From positions 5,463 to 20,406 of the forward strand of contig CAZOXV010000003.1 in NCBI GenBank assembly GCA_964583935.1: a stretch of 14,944 nucleotides of DNA. Reading direction: 5' to 3'. Shown here in pieces: positions 8,736 through 14,345 of the stretch (the stretch's first letter is position 1; the number at the start of each line of letters is the position of its first letter). Below the pieces are notes generated by a model that ran no database searches, was not told the origin of the DNA, and saw only the letters and a program-made list of their open reading frames with translations. Both the position numbers and the translations under genes were made by a program. This stretch comes from an uncultured Methanosarcinales archaeon. Its GTDB lineage: Archaea; Nanobdellota; Nanobdellia; Woesearchaeales; CAZJJJ01.

Positions 8736-9230
8736 ATGAAGTTTACATTTTTTTGGCAAGATAAGTACCTGACGCAATGGAGTACTTCACCGTTCGCTGA
8801 CTTGAGTGGTTTGATGTATAACTGTGCTGAGCAGTACATGATGGCCCAGAAAGCATTACTTTTTGGTGATGGTGAGACATTCAAGAAGATTATGTCAACT
8901 ACTTCTCCAAGAGAGCAAAAAGACCTGGGAAGACAAGTAAAGAACTTCAATCAGACTATTTGGGATACCTATTCCACGATGATAGTGCTTGATGGAAACT
9001 TACTAAAGTTCAGCCAAAATGAAAAGCATAGAGAAGCTTTACTAAGCACAGGAGATACGATACTTGTAGAAGCTTCTCCATATGACCGAGTTTGGGGAAT
9101 AGGTCTAAGAAAGGAAGACCCAAGAGCTAATGATATGTCCCAGTGGCAAGGTCAAAATAGATTGGGTTTTGTGCTTACACATTGTCGTGAATTAATAAAG
9201 GATGAGATGCCTCACAATCAGAATTCATAA
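8736..9230 (+). CDS. NADAR domain protein (YbiA/DUF1768-like, ADP-ribose/N-glycosidase family)
   Basis: It is colinear with E. coli YbiA. FFWQDKYLTQWSTSPF…CAEQYMMAQKALLF matches FYSTSDDYGDFSNFAAWPI…TSEHYFQAQKFL. LVEASPYDRVWGIG…GQNRLGFVL matches LVEHTENDAYWGDG…GKNRLGYLL. ATG 8736 lies 5 nt after AGGAG. The track start at 8688 translates the terminator hairpin. Confidence 0.75.
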   Translation: MKFTFFWQDKYLTQWSTSPFADLSGLMYNCAEQYMMAQKALLFGDGETFKKIMSTTSPREQKDLGRQVKNFNQTIWDTYSTMIVLDGNLLKFSQNEKHREALLSTGDTILVEASPYDRVWGIGLRKEDPRANDMSQWQGQNRLGFVLTHCRELIKDEMPHNQNS

Positions 9231-9254
9231 ATTTATATTTTTTGAAGAAAACTA

Positions 9255-9284
9255 TTGACAATCTTCTCTCCATACATTATATTA
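9255..9284 (+). promoter_or_regulatory. Sigma70-like promoter: GAAGAAAACTATTGACAAT, 17 bp spacer, TATATT (9278-9283)
   Basis: Direct read. GGAGGAG and ATG 9307 lie downstream. Confidence 0.6.
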
Positions 9285-9306
9285 TAGATGAATGGAGGAG
9301 ATTTCA

Positions 9307-9468
9307 ATGAAAACCGTTATCAGATGTATGCTTGTCACTGCTTCGTTTTTTATGATTGTAGGTAATCTGGACGGGAAGTGGCAAGCACTAACTGCCTCAA
9401 TACTTTTCTTCTCAGCCAACCTAATGGCTCTGATCTACAACCAAATCAAAAGAAAGGAATCGAAATGA
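9307..9468 (+). CDS. Small (53 aa) predicted two-helix membrane protein that is not in the ORF track
   Basis: ATG 9307 lies 6 nt after GGAGGAG, directly downstream of the promoter. The protein is MKTVIRCMLVTASFFMIVGNLDGKWQALTASILFFSANLMALIYNQIKRKESK. Its stop TGA 9466-9468 overlaps ATG 9465 of the next gene. Confidence 0.45.
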   Translation: MKTVIRCMLVTASFFMIVGNLDGKWQALTASILFFSANLMALIYNQIKRKESK

Positions 9469-9758
9469 TTCTCCGTATGATGCTTGGAAAAAAGTTCTTC
9501 GAAGATTGTCTCAAAGAACAAAATGATTGTAAGCGTGCTCTTGAGGAGAATAAGGTTTCACTCAAAAAAATGAAAGAAGCCGCTGAAAGGTGTAGCCAAC
9601 TTACTGACTTGTTTCTTTTTGTCTTCAATGATGAAAAGAAGGCAATGGAGTGCCTCGAGCTTTATAATTCCTTTTTGGAATTTGTGGACAAATACCAGAA
9701 ATGCGTTGATAATTATGTTGGGCTTATTTTGGACTATGATGAAATGATGGATGTCTGA
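9465..9758 (+). CDS. Hypothetical 97-aa protein with several Cys residues
   Basis: The track ORF 9378-9758 starts at a GTG with no RBS and overlaps the small membrane ORF. The in-frame ATG 9465 (MILRMMLGKKFF…) forms an ATGA coupling with the upstream small ORF, which supports this start. Confidence 0.45.
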   Translation: MILRMMLGKKFFEDCLKEQNDCKRALEENKVSLKKMKEAAERCSQLTDLFLFVFNDEKKAMECLELYNSFLEFVDKYQKCVDNYVGLILDYDEMMDV

Positions 9759-9767
9759 AATTAGGTA

Positions 9768-9797
9768 TTGACATTTCTTCTGACATCCATTATATTA
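9768..9797 (+). promoter_or_regulatory. Sigma70-like promoter: TTGACA (9768-9773), 17 bp spacer, TATATT (9791-9796)
   Basis: Direct read. GAAAGGA and ATG 9818 lie downstream. Confidence 0.6.
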
Positions 9798-9817
9798 TAT
9801 GTAGAAAGGAAATCGAT

Positions 9818-10051
9818 ATGGATATGCTTTTCAACAAAGCGGAAGTAATCGGAACAGTCATTCAGGTCAGCTTTCACACAAATCTGGTCTGTAAGTACCG
9901 TTGTTGGTACTTTCCTAAAAAGCTCTGTAAGATTCCAGAGGTTGGTGATTGCGTCGAGACAAACGAAAGAACTCTCAGAGTGTGTGATATCATACACAAA
10001 CAGCTTGAAGATGGTACACCATATCTTAGTGTTGAGTTGGTTTCCCGATGA
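9818..10051 (+). CDS. Hypothetical Cys-containing small protein
   Basis: ORF from the track with a promoter and RBS immediately upstream. Its stop overlaps the next start (ATGA). Confidence 0.5.
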   Translation: MDMLFNKAEVIGTVIQVSFHTNLVCKYRCWYFPKKLCKIPEVGDCVETNERTLRVCDIIHKQLEDGTPYLSVELVSR

Positions 10052-12947: not shown

Positions 12948-12956
12948 TTACAATAT

Positions 12957-12978
12957 GGGGAGGACTTCGATCCTTCCC
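12957..12978 (+). other. Imperfect hairpin (GGGGAGGA / TCCTTCCC, loop CTTCGA) after the lipoprotein gene, with no U-tract
   Basis: Direct read. It may be a weak terminator or RNA-processing structure. It is not followed by a T-run. Confidence 0.2.
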
Positions 12979-13023
12979 TAACATCTTATGTGTAAGACTA
13001 AGAAAAAGAGTTGAAGAAAACTA

Positions 13024-13053
13024 TTGACAATGACTTCGTAATTGATTATATTA
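13024..13053 (+). promoter_or_regulatory. Sigma70-like promoter: GAAGAAAACTATTGACAATGACT, 17 bp spacer, TATATT (13047-13052)
   Basis: Direct read. It is nearly identical to the promoter at 13451 over ~40 bp. Confidence 0.6.
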
Positions 13054-13058
13054 TATGT

Positions 13059-13454
13059 ATGAGAGAAAACAAAGACATATTCGAGATTGATGGTAATGTC
13101 GTGGTTTGTACCAACGTCAGTGGAAAGAAAGATACTATCACTAAGAATAGTTGTTCTTGTGCTGGGTTTGGCTTTCGTAAGAACTGCCGTCATTTCACAG
13201 AAGCTAAGAGTCTCGGAATGCTGGACAAGATTGAAAACAAAGCTACAAAAAATTCCACAAACAAACGTAGTGCGCATCCTCAGCTTATAGAGTTCAGAAA
13301 GAAGGCAATCAAAGCATTCATAGAATCGAATGGACTTGAGGCTCCACAGTCACTAATAAATGTCGTTGAGCCTTACGTTACAAGCACTATGAAGCCTAAG
13401 AGATTTCTTGAGATTGTGAGAAGACTTTTAGAAGTTCGCAAAGAAAACTCTTGA
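13059..13454 (+). CDS. SWIM zinc-finger protein (CxCxnCxH: SCSCAGFGFRKNCRH), probably translated from a leaderless mRNA
   Basis: The track ORF 13011-13454 begins at a TTG that translates the promoter itself. The first ATG (13059) lies 6 nt after the -10, which is about the expected transcription start site, and it has no Shine-Dalgarno. Its stop TGA 13452-13454 is embedded in the next -35. Confidence 0.45.
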   Translation: MRENKDIFEIDGNVVVCTNVSGKKDTITKNSCSCAGFGFRKNCRHFTEAKSLGMLDKIENKATKNSTNKRSAHPQLIEFRKKAIKAFIESNGLEAPQSLINVVEPYVTSTMKPKRFLEIVRRLLEVRKENS

Positions 13455-13480
13455 CAATGACTGTGTAATTGATTATATTA
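13451..13480 (+). promoter_or_regulatory. Sigma70-like promoter: TTGACA (13451-13456), 17 bp spacer, TATATT (13474-13479)
   Basis: Direct read. GAAAGGA and ATG 13509 lie downstream. Confidence 0.6.
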
Positions 13481-13508
13481 TATATGTAATCAAAAGAAAG
13501 GATTCCCA

Positions 13509-14345
13509 ATGGCAAGATCAATGCTAACTAACGACAAAGTCCGCGATGAGATTAACGGACTCATTGAAATGTTCAAGGAGCCTGAGTCTCTTGAGACAAT
13601 CGCAAAGTCAATGTTTCGTCGTGGTCAAGATATCCCTTCCGACAACTGGTCGATCCTCAACCGTCTCATTATGATGCGTCATGGTTCGATGGACGCAAGA
13701 GGTCCGAAGACTTGGTTCAAAATTGGGCGTAAGGTAATGAAGGGTGGCTCATTCTGTATCATTGCTCCAAAGATGTTTCAGATTCCTGAGAAGGATGAAA
13801 ACGGAAATCCTATTCTTGACAGTAACGGAAAGGAAAAGAAAAAGGTAATTCTGGTTGGCTTCAAACCAATTCCCGTCTGGCCTGTTGAGAAGACTGAGGG
13901 TAAGGAAGTCGACTACAAGATGGACAAGGATTTGCCTGAGTTCATGTGTAAGGAAGTTGCCGAAAAGTGGGGTATCAAGGTCAAGCAGACTTTCGATAAC
14001 CCATCATTCTATGCTTACTTTTCTCCTGAAAAAGGAGAAATCGTTATGGCGACTGATAACCAGCAAACATTTTTTCACGAATTAGCGCATTGCGCGGACG
14101 CTAAAGTTCAGGGAAAAATCAAGACTGGTCAGGACGAAGTCCAGGAGATCGTCGCAGAGTTCGGAGCTTCTGTACTTATGAGAATGTTTGGGCTAAAGGC
14201 AGGAACCAAGAATACCTATGAGTATGTCAAGAAGTACGCAGACAATCTCAGTAAGGACCCAATCGATGCCGTGATTCCTCTTGTTAGTAGGATTAGTAAA
14301 GTAATCGAGCTTATTCTCAAAGAGAGCGAAAATCTTCAAAAGTAA
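13509..14345 (+). CDS. ardC: ArdC-like antirestriction protein (N-terminal ssDNA-binding DUF1738-like domain plus C-terminal HExxH metalloprotease-like domain)
   Basis: N-terminal …WFKIGRKVMKGGS… resembles the ArdC-N motif W.TF.QA..LGG.VRKGEKG. C-terminal FFHELAHCADAK matches the ArdC FHELxH zincin motif. The overall length fits. Confidence 0.55.
   Translation: MARSMLTNDKVRDEINGLIEMFKEPESLETIAKSMFRRGQDIPSDNWSILNRLIMMRHGSMDARGPKTWFKIGRKVMKGGSFCIIAPKMFQIPEKDENGNPILDSNGKEKKKVILVGFKPIPVWPVEKTEGKEVDYKMDKDLPEFMCKEVAEKWGIKVKQTFDNPSFYAYFSPEKGEIVMATDNQQTFFHELAHCADAKVQGKIKTGQDEVQEIVAEFGASVLMRMFGLKAGTKNTYEYVKKYADNLSKDPIDAVIPLVSRISKVIELILKESENLQK

What the first reader, a model, noticed from the sequence alone, without database searches (positions are those of the whole stretch)
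8736..14345. Additional counter-defence candidates: a NADAR protein and an ArdC-like antirestriction protein, each on its own promoter
What the sequence shows: a YbiA-like NADAR protein (8736-9230) directly downstream of the MVP terminator, and a DUF1738-like plus HExxH protein (13509-14345) behind a consensus promoter. Established knowledge: NADAR enzymes hydrolyse ADP-ribose adducts, including guanine ADP-ribosylation by DarT-type toxins. ArdC-type proteins protect incoming ssDNA or proteolytically disarm restriction. Inference: together with the NAD+ genes this looks like an anti-defence island of an early region. The NADAR protein could reverse ADP-ribosylation-based immunity (DarTG-like).
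Basis: partly seen in the sequence, partly recalled or inferred. Interest (0 to 1): 0.6.

Follow-up and report, generated by a model that had tools for sequence, protein, structure and literature searches.

The report
Phage NADAR hydrolase and ArdC-like protein
Two genes in a giant-phage early region are a YbiA-type ADP-ribose-removing enzyme (NADAR) and an ArdC-type DNA-binding metalloprotease; both kinds are already reported in phages as likely anti-defence tools, so this is a sound but ordinary annotation.

Summary
Both ORFs are real and both family calls hold.

**NADAR, 8736-9230.**
- It is a full-length NADAR (Pfam E 6e-51).
- It is of the YbiA subtype, with Glu112 at the subtype-defining position.
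- The ADP-ribose-contact residues are intact.
- The model superposes on the Phytophthora NADAR:ADPr structure at TM 0.84.

**ArdC-like protein, 13509-14345.**
- It is a two-domain ArdC homologue. R388 ArdC is the top and only strong structural match.
- A profile-profile match to an ArdcN-positive family has probability 100%.
- H190, E191, H194 and E213 are invariant in the alignment.

**Correction to the finding.**
- "Each on its own promoter" is half wrong.
- The ArdC-like gene has a near-consensus promoter at 13451-13479.
- NADAR has none. It starts 16 nt after a strong terminator hairpin.
- In a 92-97% identical relative, NADAR directly follows the Nudix gene. The MVP gene with its promoter and terminator is an inserted cassette.
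- NADAR therefore belongs to the NAD+/ADP-ribose operon.

**Status against the literature.**
- Phage NADARs that neutralise DarTG1 (AdfN) are published, and so are ArdC genes in huge phages.
- This is a new member of known kinds.
- The substrates (DNA adducts or soluble ADPr derivatives for NADAR; restriction complexes or other targets for ArdC) cannot be decided by computation.

The parts
2447..2475 (+). Promoter-like site (TTGACA-17-TATATT with TG) ahead of the NAD+ operon (PncA-NadE-x-NaMNAT-Nudix). In the arrangement without MVP it is the nearest upstream promoter for NADAR.
   Evidence: It is one of seven 11/12 matches, all on the + strand.
5083..5670 (+). Nudix hydrolase. Its best NCBIfam matches are NudE and ADP-ribose diphosphatase. 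It is the gene directly upstream of NADAR in relative L008, and is separated from NADAR by one 70-aa ORF in L015. It is the likely consumer of ADP-ribose released by NADAR.
   Evidence: PF00293 at E 1.9e-13. NudE and ADPr diphosphatase matches are below cut-off. Synteny.
5696..8732 (+). MVP cassette: promoter 5705-5733, MVP gene 5733-8672 and terminator 8694-8719. It is present or absent as one block between Nudix and NADAR.
   Evidence: blastn against L008 breaks exactly at 5695/8733. Alignment.
8694..8719 (+). Intrinsic-terminator-like hairpin between MVP and NADAR, with an 11-bp stem and a U-rich tail.
   Evidence: One search gives dG -21.8 kcal/mol and z -3.99, with 0 of 200 shuffles folding as well. 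An equivalent hairpin precedes NADAR in L016.
8736..9230 (+). NADAR protein, 164 aa, YbiA subfamily. Predicted ADP-ribosyl N-glycohydrolase. The RBS AGGAG lies at 8726-8730.
   Evidence: PF08719 at E 5.8e-51. TIGR02464 at 154 bits. PDB 8BAU at E 9e-17 and YbiA at 4e-6. AF2 pLDDT 95.9 with TM 0.84 to 8BAU. E32, K39, W76, E112 and D117 are invariant, and R66 and W120 nearly invariant, in alignment A3. omega is 0.09 against L008.
9255..9283 (+). Next promoter-like site (TTGACA-17-TATATT) after NADAR. It marks the start of the following transcription unit.
11076..12293 (+). Nicotinate phosphoribosyltransferase (PncB type). It lies in the same conserved gene order downstream of NADAR.
   Evidence: TIGR01514 at 407 bits against a cut-off of 269.6. 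Synteny.
13451..13479 (+). Near-consensus sigma-70-type promoter of the ArdC-like gene. It fits the extended motif GAAAACTC-TTGACA-N13-TTATATTATA shared with the other promoters of the region.
   Evidence: It is conserved upstream of the orthologue in L008 and L001, and absent in L015, L016 and L007.
13509..14345 (+). ArdC-like protein, 278 aa. It has a basic N-terminal ArdcN-type domain and a C-terminal zincin metalloprotease domain with H190, E191, H194 and E213.

Best explanation
The window is part of an early, host-RNA-polymerase-transcribed accessory region of a jumbo phage. Its relatives are about 250-kb metagenomic phage contigs.

1. NADAR.
- The NADAR protein is an active ADP-ribosyl N-glycohydrolase of the YbiA subtype.
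- It has no promoter of its own. It is the last gene of the NAD+/ADP-ribose operon (PncA, NadE, NaMNAT, Nudix, NADAR).
- In this genome it is reached only by read-through of the terminator of an inserted MVP cassette.
- Most likely it strips ADP-ribose from N-linked adducts made by host ADP-ribosyltransferase defences. The leading candidate substrates are guanine, and possibly cytosine, bases of phage DNA, as for the published phage AdfN proteins against DarTG1.
- The adjacent Nudix enzyme would then break the released ADP-ribose down, while the other operon enzymes rebuild NAD+ from nicotinamide.

2. ArdC-like protein.
- It is a separate early gene with its own promoter.
- It is a true ArdC homologue: an ssDNA-binding-type N-terminal domain plus an intact Zn-metalloprotease site.
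- It most likely acts at DNA early in infection to blunt restriction-type defences.

3. What is shown and what is inferred.
- Shown: gene models, family membership, intact catalytic residues, purifying selection, promoter and terminator layout, and synteny.
- Inferred: the substrates and the counter-defence roles.
For: NADAR identity and active site.
- Family matches. Structure model and fold matches.
- Every PnNADAR ADPr-contact residue except R93 has a counterpart: E43/K50/R79/W89/E125/D130/W133 correspond to E32/K39/R66/W76/E112/D117/W120. Five of these are invariant and two nearly invariant across 24 sequences (residue list from PMC11543638).
- Glu at the E125 position defines the YbiA subfamily.

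Operon membership.
- No promoter lies upstream of NADAR in any of 5 loci. A terminator lies 16 nt upstream.
- In L008 the gene follows Nudix directly, and the MVP cassette is a clean indel.
- The order Nudix-[MVP]-NADAR-...-NAPRT recurs in the window, L003 and L015. L016 shows the same order from MVP onward (its contig starts inside MVP). L008 keeps Nudix-NADAR but lacks MVP and NAPRT.

Independence from NAD+ synthesis.
- L008 has lost NadE, part of NaMNAT and NAPRT, yet keeps a NADAR that is 99% identical at protein level.
- None of 79 other viral NADAR loci has PncA, NadE, NaMNAT or NAPRT homologues within 6 kb.
- This fits a self-contained counter-defence enzyme.

Literature.
- All NADAR subtypes tested de-ADP-ribosylate guanine in DNA. 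YbiA types also act on cytidine.
- Three of three phage NADARs tested counter DarTG1.
- The closest PADLOC model is a NADAR from a candidate defence system, at E 1.6e-40.

ArdC-like protein.
- Fold and profile evidence. PF18818 matches 27 of 30 family members and ArdcN matches 3 of 30.
- The metal ligands and catalytic Glu are invariant, aligned to R388 ArdC H201/E202/H205/E229.
- omega is 0.086.
- The promoter is also present upstream of the orthologue in L008 and L001, but is absent in L015, L016 and L007.
- ArdC has been reported in 101 huge-phage genomes.

Early-region character.
- Seven near-consensus promoters lie on one strand, against 0.35 expected.
Against: No activity or phenotype was tested.

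NADAR.
- It also passes the NCBIfam equivalog-domain model named 'riboflavin biosynthesis intermediates N-glycosidase'.
- E. coli YbiA, the same subtype, and T4 gp30.3 did not protect cells from DarT1.
- It lacks the N-terminal extension proposed to bind ssDNA in DarT1-linked NADARs. The domain spans residues 5-154 of 164, and the protein is slightly acidic.
- The DarG1 structure 8BAT is not matched by sequence at E <= 0.01 and is not among the Foldseek matches at E <= 10.
- Its operon context with Nudix and cREC is the context for which Iyer et al. argued a role on soluble ADPr derivatives.
- A strong terminator directly upstream implies low expression in this genome.

ArdC-like protein.
- R388 ArdC was characterised in plasmid conjugation. 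Whether a dsDNA jumbo phage presents comparable ssDNA is unknown and was not examined.
- In R388 the protease is dispensable for antirestriction. Yet in the phage family the protease residues are invariant, which hints at a different or additional role.
- E228 of ArdC is Gln here.

The host is unknown, and so is whether it carries DarTG or type I R-M systems.
Confidence: 0.55

Rival explanations
1. NADAR works on small molecules rather than DNA. It would cleave N-glycosidic ADP-ribose derivatives produced by host NADase or TIR-type immunity, such as signals or toxic by-products. The resulting ADP-ribose would pass to the neighbouring Nudix enzyme. The operon would then combine signal or by-product clearance with NAD+ rebuilding.
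For: - NADAR sits without its own promoter inside the NAD+/ADPr operon next to Nudix.
- A cREC_REC gene, predicted to process cyclic ADPr or phosphates, lies in the same region at 418-720.
- Iyer et al. describe this NADAR + cREC + Nudix logic and NADAR next to phage NAD+ salvage genes, and favour soluble substrates.
- The protein is a bare YbiA domain without a DNA-binding extension and is slightly acidic.
Against: - No soluble ADPr-derived substrate of any NADAR is reported in the papers I read. All ADPr-hydrolase activities reported there are on nucleic-acid bases; YbiA's other known substrates are riboflavin intermediates.
- The linkage to NAD+ genes is confined to this phage lineage: 0 of 79 other viral NADAR loci show it.
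- NADAR is kept at 99% identity in L008, where the NAD+ pathway has decayed.
Confidence: 0.25
2. NADAR is a metabolic damage-control N-glycosidase like E. coli YbiA, acting on riboflavin-pathway intermediates. It would be an auxiliary metabolic gene with no role in defence evasion.
For: It passes TIGR02464, 'riboflavin biosynthesis intermediates N-glycosidase', at 154 bits against a cut-off of 73.7. It has the YbiA-type Glu. Many phage homologues are annotated as GTP cyclohydrolase II or riboflavin-related.
Against: - No match to a riboflavin-pathway family was found among the window ORFs that were scanned.
- The gene neighbours concern NAD+ and ADPr.
- YbiA itself removes ADPr from guanine and cytidine.
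- According to the cited survey, NADARs are concentrated in medium-sized and jumbo phages and in myoviruses.
- The 'GTP cyclohydrolase' labels appear to stem from the ribA/ribD-fusion naming of this family.
Confidence: 0.07
3. The ArdC-like protein is not an antirestriction factor. It would be a DNA-dependent metalloprotease with another target. Candidates are host DNA-bound proteins (nucleoid proteins, repressors or other defence proteins) in the manner of Spartan/SprT or IrrE, or DNA-protein crosslinks on phage DNA.
For: - H190, E191, H194 and E213 are invariant in 30 sequences under omega 0.086. In R388 ArdC, by contrast, the protease is dispensable for antirestriction.
- According to the R388 ArdC paper, the closest structural homologues of the ArdC C-terminal domain are the DNA-binding metalloproteases Spartan and IrrE.
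- Iyer et al. proposed that jumbo-phage ArdC-like MPTases cleave host proteins.
Against: - The only experimentally characterised relative matched here, R388 ArdC, is an antirestriction protein.
- Expression from an early host-type promoter fits a role before or during first contact with restriction.
- No candidate target was identified.
Confidence: 0.3
4. NADAR is an antidote or regulator for a phage-encoded ADP-ribosyltransferase. This would resemble T4-like phages, where NADAR is co-expressed with ARTs, or YarT-YbiA toxin-antitoxin pairs. It would not be directed at a host defence.
For: YbiA-type NADARs serve as antitoxins to the YarT ART. [quoted passage not shown]
Against: No ART family match was found among the window ORFs scanned or in the precomputed Pfam families of the called genes next to NADAR in related loci. 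Only 14.9 kb of a roughly 250-kb genome was visible, so a distant ART cannot be excluded.
Confidence: 0.08

Closest known systems
AdfN (anti-DarT factor NADAR) of phages T4, Bas32 and Bas60 (Johannesman et al. 2025, PMC11825919)
   Same: Both are stand-alone phage-encoded NADAR-domain proteins of about 150-180 aa with the conserved Glu and Lys catalytic residues. T4 E36 and K43 are, by the paper's account, the equivalents of PnNADAR's ADPr-contact residues, which map to E32 and K39 here; no T4 sequence was aligned. The window protein aligns at 33-35% identity over 87-98% of its length with NADARs of E. coli Stephanstirmvirinae myophages.
   Different: It has Glu at the subtype-defining position, as in YbiA, whereas T4-type phage NADARs have His. 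It gives no PF08010 (gp30.3) match. I could not confirm that AdfN-Bas60 belongs to the 33-35% group. Here the gene is embedded in a NAD+ salvage operon. Anti-DarTG1 activity was not tested.
Phytophthora nicotianae NADAR (PDB 8BAU) and E. coli YbiA (PDB 2B3W), both YbiA subfamily
   Same: These are the best sequence matches (E 9e-17 and 4e-6) and structural matches (TM 0.84 and 0.76). The ADPr-binding residues and the signature Glu are the same. Both references hydrolyse guanine-ADPr in vitro.
   Different: The window protein is 28% and 25% identical to them. It lacks the Phytophthora extensions. Pn R93 is Ser here. It is phage-encoded and lies in a NAD+/ADPr operon, not in the LexA-controlled dinG-ybiB operon of E. 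coli.
DarG1, the DarT1-associated NADAR antitoxin (BC4488 subfamily, PDB 8BAT)
   Same: Same superfamily and same chemistry (removal of ADP-ribose from guanine N2), according to PMC11543638.
   Different: DarG1 has Asp rather than Glu at the signature position and a basic N-terminal extension, and it is encoded next to DarT1. None of these applies here. 8BAT was not matched at E <= 0.01 by sequence, nor at E <= 10 by Foldseek.
ArdC of plasmid R388 (PDB 6I89, 6SNA; Gonzalez-Montes et al. 2020, PMC7213743)
   Same: Same two-domain architecture and similar size (278 vs 297 aa). It is the top fold match. HExxH plus a downstream Glu ligand are conserved. The 'VFNADQ' squiggle region aligns to VWPVEK. 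The N-terminal domain is basic.
   Different: Identity is about 15-18%. E228 is Gln here. The gene is on a jumbo phage behind an early promoter, not in a conjugative-plasmid leading region. Whether the protease domain matters may differ between the two.
ArdC homologues of huge phages (bioRxiv 10.1101/2025.02.27.640493) and ArdC-like MPTases of group 3 jumbo phages (Iyer et al. 2021, PMC7824862)
   Same: The window's relatives include about 250-kb phage contigs. The domain pair and conserved key residues are the same.
   Different: No sequence-level comparison with the preprint's set was possible. This clade (44 proteins, 50-97% identical) may or may not be among the 102 genes they list.

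Membership tests
NADAR superfamily (Pfam PF08719) | Full-length match to the family profile above the curated threshold | tested here: met
   173.4 bits against a cut-off of 35.1, over profile positions 1-162 of 163.
NADAR superfamily (Pfam PF08719) | YbiA-like alpha+beta fold | tested here: met
   AF2 pLDDT 95.9. Foldseek gives TM 0.84 to 8BAU and 0.76 to 2B3W, with no other hit below E 1.
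NADAR superfamily (Pfam PF08719) | Conserved ADPr-contact and catalytic residues (PnNADAR E43, K50, R79, W89, E125, D130, W133) | tested here: met
   The counterparts E32, K39, R66, W76, E112, D117 and W120 are all present. Five are invariant and two nearly invariant in A3. Only R93 changes, to S80.
YbiA subfamily of NADAR / TIGR02464 | Glu (not Asp or His) in the last beta-strand, and no fold extension | tested here: met
   E112 is in strand 109-112. The domain spans residues 5-154 of 164. TIGR02464 scores 154 bits against a cut-off of 73.7.
YbiA subfamily of NADAR / TIGR02464 | N-glycosidase activity on riboflavin intermediates | not testable with these tools
   This needs an enzyme assay. 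No match to a riboflavin-pathway family was found among the window ORFs scanned.
DarG1 / BC4488 NADAR antitoxins | Asp at the signature position, a basic N-terminal extension, and adjacency to DarT1 | tested here: not met
   The signature residue is Glu. There is no extension. No DarT or other ART family match was found among the window ORFs scanned. 8BAT is not matched.
T4-type phage NADAR (gp30.3, PF08010) | His at the signature position and a match to PF08010 | tested here: not met
   E112 stands in place of His. There is no PF08010 hit for the window protein.
AdfN (functional class: phage NADAR that counters DarTG1) | Removes ADPr from DarT1-modified DNA and restores plating on DarTG1 hosts | not testable with these tools
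   Only homology is available: 33-35% identity to Stephanstirmvirinae NADARs. The link to AdfN-Bas60 itself was not verified.
ArdC family | N-terminal ArdcN (PF08401, formerly DUF1738) ssDNA-binding domain | tested here: met
   The single sequence gives no Pfam hit. The family profile without P0044 aligns from residue 9 onward with an ArdcN-positive family at probability 100%, E 5e-59. That family matches R388 ArdC at E 9e-7. The Foldseek alignment to 6I89 and 6SNA spans 248-286 columns. Three of 30 members hit PF08401.
ArdC family | C-terminal zincin metalloprotease (PF18818) with HExxH and a downstream Glu ligand (R388 H201, E202, H205, E229) | tested here: met
   H190, E191, H194 and E213 are invariant and aligned to the R388 residues. 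PF18818 matches 27 of 30 members. The window protein alone scores 22.1 bits, below the cut-off of 27.5. E228 is replaced by Q212.
ArdC family | Binds ssDNA and alleviates type I restriction | not testable with these tools
   This needs EMSA and plating assays. The only indirect hint is that the N-terminal domain has pI 9.4.
ArdC family | Encoded on a conjugative plasmid or ICE | tested here: not met
   The context is a jumbo phage. Phage-borne ArdC genes are already reported.

The most novel reading that the evidence does not exclude
NADAR, Nudix, cREC and the four Preiss-Handler enzymes (PncA, PncB, NadD-like, NadE) would form one early phage operon with two linked jobs. NADAR would cleave N-glycosidic ADP-ribose immune products, meaning soluble signals such as histidine-ADPR-type molecules rather than DNA adducts. 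Nudix would dispose of the released ADP-ribose. The remaining enzymes would rebuild NAD+ from nicotinamide by the deamidated route. That route is not mentioned in the NARP1/2 preprint or the 2022 viral NAD+ survey, and is not part of NARP3 as its abstract defines it. A NADAR acting on soluble immune signals would be a new activity for the family.
Probability: 0.15. Interest if true: 0.65.

Novelty: new member of a known kind. Interest (0 to 1): 0.28.

Why it matters
If the predicted roles hold, this phage lineage stacks several anti-defence layers in one early region: NAD+ rebuilding, ADP-ribose adduct removal and an ArdC-type factor. That adds an environmental jumbo-phage example to the recently described AdfN and huge-phage ArdC classes.

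The useful new details are structural.
- NADAR here is an operon member placed behind Nudix, not a free-standing gene.
- It is of the YbiA subtype, whose in-vivo specificity is the open question in the NADAR field.
- The ArdC clade keeps an invariant protease site, although that activity was dispensable in the plasmid prototype.

These points give concrete hypotheses to test. They do not change what is known about either family.

Tried and rejected
1. **General MVP-NADAR coupling** (by analogy with vault/vPARP). Adjacency holds in the window lineage (window, L003, L016, L097). There is one independent huge-phage case with reversed order (L028/L098). Only 2 of 23 phage MVP loci have a NADAR within 8 kb. 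Rejected as a general rule.
2. **General NADAR-NAD+ salvage coupling.** None of 79 other viral NADAR loci has PncA, NadE, NaMNAT or NAPRT homologues within 6 kb. The search used tblastn with window proteins only, so NadV/Nampt-type genes would have been missed.
3. **Nucleotide search of isolated phages.** The search with window 8000-14944 found no match. The ArdC-like protein finds only 4 phage records, at about 24% identity.
4. **Tying the window NADAR to AdfN-Bas60.** The paper's supplements are not held. A megablast with the Phapecoctavirus nieznany NADAR did not list a record I could identify as Bas60.
5. **Direct sequence search of PDB with the ArdC-like protein.** It found nothing meaningful. 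A profile was needed.
6. **Function of the conserved 123-aa ORF 10048-10419.** It has no Pfam, NCBIfam or PDB match.
7. **tRNA scan.** The window contains none.
8. **A promoter for NADAR.** I looked in the window and in four related loci and found none.

Full report
**Setting.**
- All credible genes of the 14.9-kb window lie on the + strand.
- In order they encode:
  - a thioredoxin-like protein;
  - a cREC_REC domain protein (418-720);
  - a CxxCxxCC protein;
  - a nicotinamidase-like isochorismatase (2506-3045);
  - NAD+ synthase (3262-4134);
  - a NadD-like adenylyltransferase (4466-5083);
  - a Nudix hydrolase (5083-5670);
  - a major-vault-protein homologue (5733-8672);
  - NADAR (8736-9230);
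  - six small ORFs without family matches;
  - a PncB-type nicotinate phosphoribosyltransferase (11076-12293);
  - a lipoprotein-like ORF;
  - a SWIM-like zinc-finger ORF;
  - the ArdC-like gene (13509-14345).
- No isolated phage matches at nucleotide level.
- Related metagenomic contigs are jumbo phages: 253,664 bp (L001), 253,372 bp (L003) and 149,281 bp (L008, 92-97% nucleotide identity).

**Observation: NADAR.**
- The ORF and its start are correct. AGGAG lies 5 nt upstream of the ATG at 8736, and homologues begin with the same MKFTFFW.
- It matches PF08719 end to end (E 5.8e-51) and passes NCBIfam TIGR02464.
- By sequence its closest solved relatives are the Phytophthora nicotianae NADAR:ADPr complex 8BAU (E 9e-17) and E. 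coli YbiA (E 4e-6). The DarT1-linked Geobacter NADAR is not matched.
- An AlphaFold model (pLDDT 95.9) superposes on 8BAU at TM 0.84 and on YbiA at TM 0.76.
- Schuller et al. list the ADP-ribose-contact residues of PnNADAR as E43, K50, R79, W89, R93, E125, D130 and W133. From the printed alignment and a 24-sequence alignment, these correspond to E32, K39, R66, W76, S80, E112, D117 and W120. All but the R93 position are conserved. E32, K39, W76, E112 and D117 are invariant.
- Glu at the E125 position is the published signature of the YbiA subfamily. DarT-linked NADARs have Asp there and T4-type phage NADARs have His.
- The gene is under purifying selection: omega 0.09 against L008, though on only seven substitutions.
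- Homologues at up to 52% identity occur in 732 phage records.

**Observation: the ArdC-like protein.**
- The single sequence gives only a sub-threshold PF18818 match (22.1 bits against 27.5). It gives no PF08401 match and no direct PDB match. PHROGs gives an 'anti-restriction protein' family at E 1e-10.
- A family of 44 homologues was recovered.
- In a 30-sequence alignment H190, E191, H194 and E213 are invariant.
- A profile of that alignment puts R388 ArdC first in PDB (E 0.11, colinear). It aligns HELxH to ArdC H201-E202-x-x-H205 and Q212-E213 to E228-E229.
- The AlphaFold model (pLDDT 86) has ArdC as its top three Foldseek hits (E 6e-9 to 2e-6, 242-286 aligned columns). The next hit is at E 0.18.
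- For the N-terminal domain I removed the one ArdcN-positive member and compared the remaining profile with a separate family of about 280-aa proteins. Many of those carry PF08401 and are named ArdC by their sources.
  - hhalign gives probability 100%, E 5e-59, over 266 columns starting at residue 9.
  - That second family matches R388 ArdC at E 9e-7 over residues 73-294.
- The N-terminal half is basic (pI 9.4) and the C-terminal half acidic (pI 5.8).
- omega against L008 is 0.086 on 60 substitutions.
- 'DUF1738-like plus HExxH' is confirmed.

**Promoters and transcription units.**
- The scan finds seven sites with 11 of 12 consensus positions, all on the + strand. Five are plainly intergenic: 2447, 5705, 9255, 9768 and 13451. 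The site at 13024 lies inside annotated ORF 13011. The site at 14562 ends at the start of ORF 14590.
- There are none on the - strand, and composition-preserving shuffles give a mean of 0.35.
- Several share an extended motif, GAAAACTA-TTGACA-N13-TTATATTATA. They look like a genuine promoter family read by the host sigma-70 holoenzyme, which fits an early region.
- The ArdC-like gene has such a promoter 30 nt upstream (13451-13479).
  - The same arrangement is found upstream of the orthologue in L008 and in the 75%-identical L001, where a terminator precedes it.
  - It is absent in L015, L016 and L007.
- NADAR has no promoter-like site of at least 10/12 within 300 nt, in the window or in L008, L003, L015 or L016.
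- NADAR's RBS begins 6 nt after an 11-bp GC-rich hairpin (dG -21.8 kcal/mol, z -4.0) followed by a U-tract.
- The claim in the title that each gene has its own promoter is therefore wrong for NADAR.

**What the relatives show.**
- Against L008 the window differs mainly by block indels. Window 5696-8732 is absent from L008. That block is exactly the MVP promoter, gene and terminator, and in L008 NADAR follows Nudix after about 100 nt.
- L008 also lacks most of NadE, the middle of the adenylyltransferase gene, and the block 9818-12262 that includes NAPRT. It keeps Nudix (98%), NADAR (99%) and ArdC (96%).
- Across loci the recurring order is PncA-[NadE]-x-NaMNAT-Nudix-[MVP]-NADAR-...-NAPRT-...-ArdC.
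  - NADAR is present in the window, L008, L003, L015 and L016, and absent in L001.
  - ArdC is present in the window, L008, L001, L015, L016 and L007, and absent from the L003 region.
- NADAR is therefore best read as the distal gene of the NAD+/ADP-ribose operon. The ArdC-like gene is an independent neighbour.
- The linkage does not generalise. Among 79 other viral contigs carrying NADARs 47-56% identical, none has homologues of the window's NAD+ enzymes within 6 kb.
- I also tested whether MVP and NADAR are coupled.
  - One unrelated 470-kb phage contig has NADAR immediately upstream of an MVP gene.
  - Only 2 of 23 phage MVP loci have a NADAR within 8 kb.
  - There is no general coupling.

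**Mechanism.**
- The established chemistry comes from the literature.
  - NADARs hydrolyse the N-glycosidic bond between ADP-ribose and guanine N2 in DNA (PMC11543638).
  - DarT1-linked, sigma-70-operon-linked, YbiA and T4 phage NADARs all do so in vitro and do not act on thymidine-ADPr (PMC11125620).
  - YbiA-type enzymes also remove cytidine-ADPr (PMC12945103).
  - T4, Bas32 and Bas60 NADARs (AdfN) restore phage growth on DarTG1 hosts (PMC11825919).
- The window protein has an intact active site, is under selection, and is retained when the NAD+ pathway decays.
- The most likely role is therefore removal of ADP-ribose from base adducts on phage DNA. The adjacent Nudix (closest to NudE and ADP-ribose diphosphatase) would clear the product.
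- Caveats:
  - In-vitro activity did not translate into DarT1 protection for E. coli YbiA or T4 gp30.3 expressed alone.
  - This protein is a bare YbiA domain without the basic extension of DarT-linked NADARs.
  - Iyer et al. argued, from this kind of NADAR + cREC + Nudix + NAD+ salvage neighbourhood, for soluble ADPr derivatives as substrates. That rival cannot be excluded.
- For ArdC, the R388 prototype binds ssDNA, overcomes HsdRMS in the recipient, and does not need its protease for that. The phage clade keeps every metal ligand and the catalytic Glu invariant, which suggests the protease matters here.

**Novelty.**
- Phage NADARs as orphan antitoxin-like counter-defence enzymes are published.
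- NADAR next to phage NAD+ salvage genes is published (PMC9503650).
- ArdC-like metallopeptidases in jumbo phages are published (PMC7824862).
- ArdC in 101 huge-phage genomes is published (bioRxiv 10.1101/2025.02.27.640493).
- The finding is a correct annotation of two new members of known kinds, with one error about transcription. I score interest at 0.28.
- The more unusual features of the window lie outside this finding:
  - a complete deamidated NAD+ salvage set (PncA, PncB, NadD-like, NadE), which I did not find described for phages in the NARP1/2 preprint, the NARP3 abstract or the 2022 viral survey;
  - the mobile MVP cassette.

Noticed in passing
window 2506-5670 and 11076-12293: The window encodes a complete deamidated (Preiss-Handler) NAD+ route from nicotinamide. 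It comprises a nicotinamidase-like PncA, a PncB-type NAPRTase (TIGR01514, 407 bits), a NadD-like adenylyltransferase (TIGR00482, 102.8 bits against a cut-off of 112.45) and NadE (TIGR00552, 139.5 bits), plus a Nudix enzyme. The phage NAD+ pathways in the papers I read use other routes: NARP1 acts via ADPR-PP, NARP2 via Nampt/NMNAT, NARP3 via PnuC/NadR, and the 2022 survey describes NadV/NadM/NadR. This deamidated set may be an undescribed variant.
   Followed up: partly
window 5696-8732; L003 7020-9746; L016 3-800; L028 6903-9344; L097-L119: A major-vault-protein homologue with its own promoter and terminator is a clean insertion or deletion relative to a 92-97% identical phage. MVP homologues occur in at least 23 viral contigs, many of them 200-500 kb. 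NADAR is adjacent in the window lineage and in one unrelated 470-kb contig, but only 2 of 23 MVP loci have a NADAR within 8 kb.
   Followed up: partly
L008 5676-7080 and 8520-8760 (IMGVR_UViG_3300005976_000005): In the closest relative the NAD+ pathway is decayed. Most of NadE, the middle of the adenylyltransferase gene and the whole block containing NAPRT are missing. Nudix, NADAR and ArdC remain 96-99% identical.
   Followed up: yes
window 10048-10419: A 123-aa ORF (phrog_13623, no Pfam, NCBIfam or PDB match) is conserved at 55-70% identity between NADAR (or Nudix) and NAPRT in every related NAD+ module. Its invariant residues D6, H8, T36-G37, K70/K91 and D105-D106 are reminiscent of a small HAD-like phosphatase. 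It may be an unrecognised pathway component.
   Followed up: partly
window 13024-13052 and 13059: A near-copy of the ArdC promoter lies inside the mechanically called ORF 13011-13454. The real start is probably the in-frame ATG at 13059, 7 nt after the -10 element. That would give a leaderless or nearly leaderless mRNA for a basic (pI 9.7) SWIM-like zinc-finger protein.
   Followed up: no
window 2447, 5705, 9255, 9768, 13024, 13451, 14562: Seven near-consensus sigma-70-type promoters all lie on the + strand, and several share the extended motif GAAAACTA-TTGACA-N13-TTATATTATA. Shuffles give a mean of 0.35 such sites.
   Followed up: yes
window 12315-12947: A 210-aa predicted lipoprotein (signal peptide ending LISMVG|C, Cys21) with a coiled-coil-like, charge-rich body. 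It evolves faster than its neighbours (omega 0.23 against L008, with many charge swaps).
   Followed up: no
window 418-720: A cREC_REC (cyclic-phosphate processing receiver) protein matches at E 4e-29. The family is predicted in the literature to process cyclic ADPr or cyclic nucleotide signals. In relatives it lies next to NAPRT (L003) or next to Thg1 and PTH2 (L001).
   Followed up: no
window 8736-9230 against PADLOC and NCBIfam: The closest PADLOC model to the NADAR is PDC-M42C, a component of a candidate bacterial defence system (E 1.6e-40). NCBIfam also has a 'NADAR family anti-phage protein' model, which matches only weakly. Similar NADARs are therefore used on the host side too.
   Followed up: no
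L028 5992-6828: In the 470-kb contig the NADAR is 278 aa. It has a C-terminal extension of about 120 aa with no Pfam match and is followed after 75 nt by MVP and then a DUF5662 protein.
   Followed up: no
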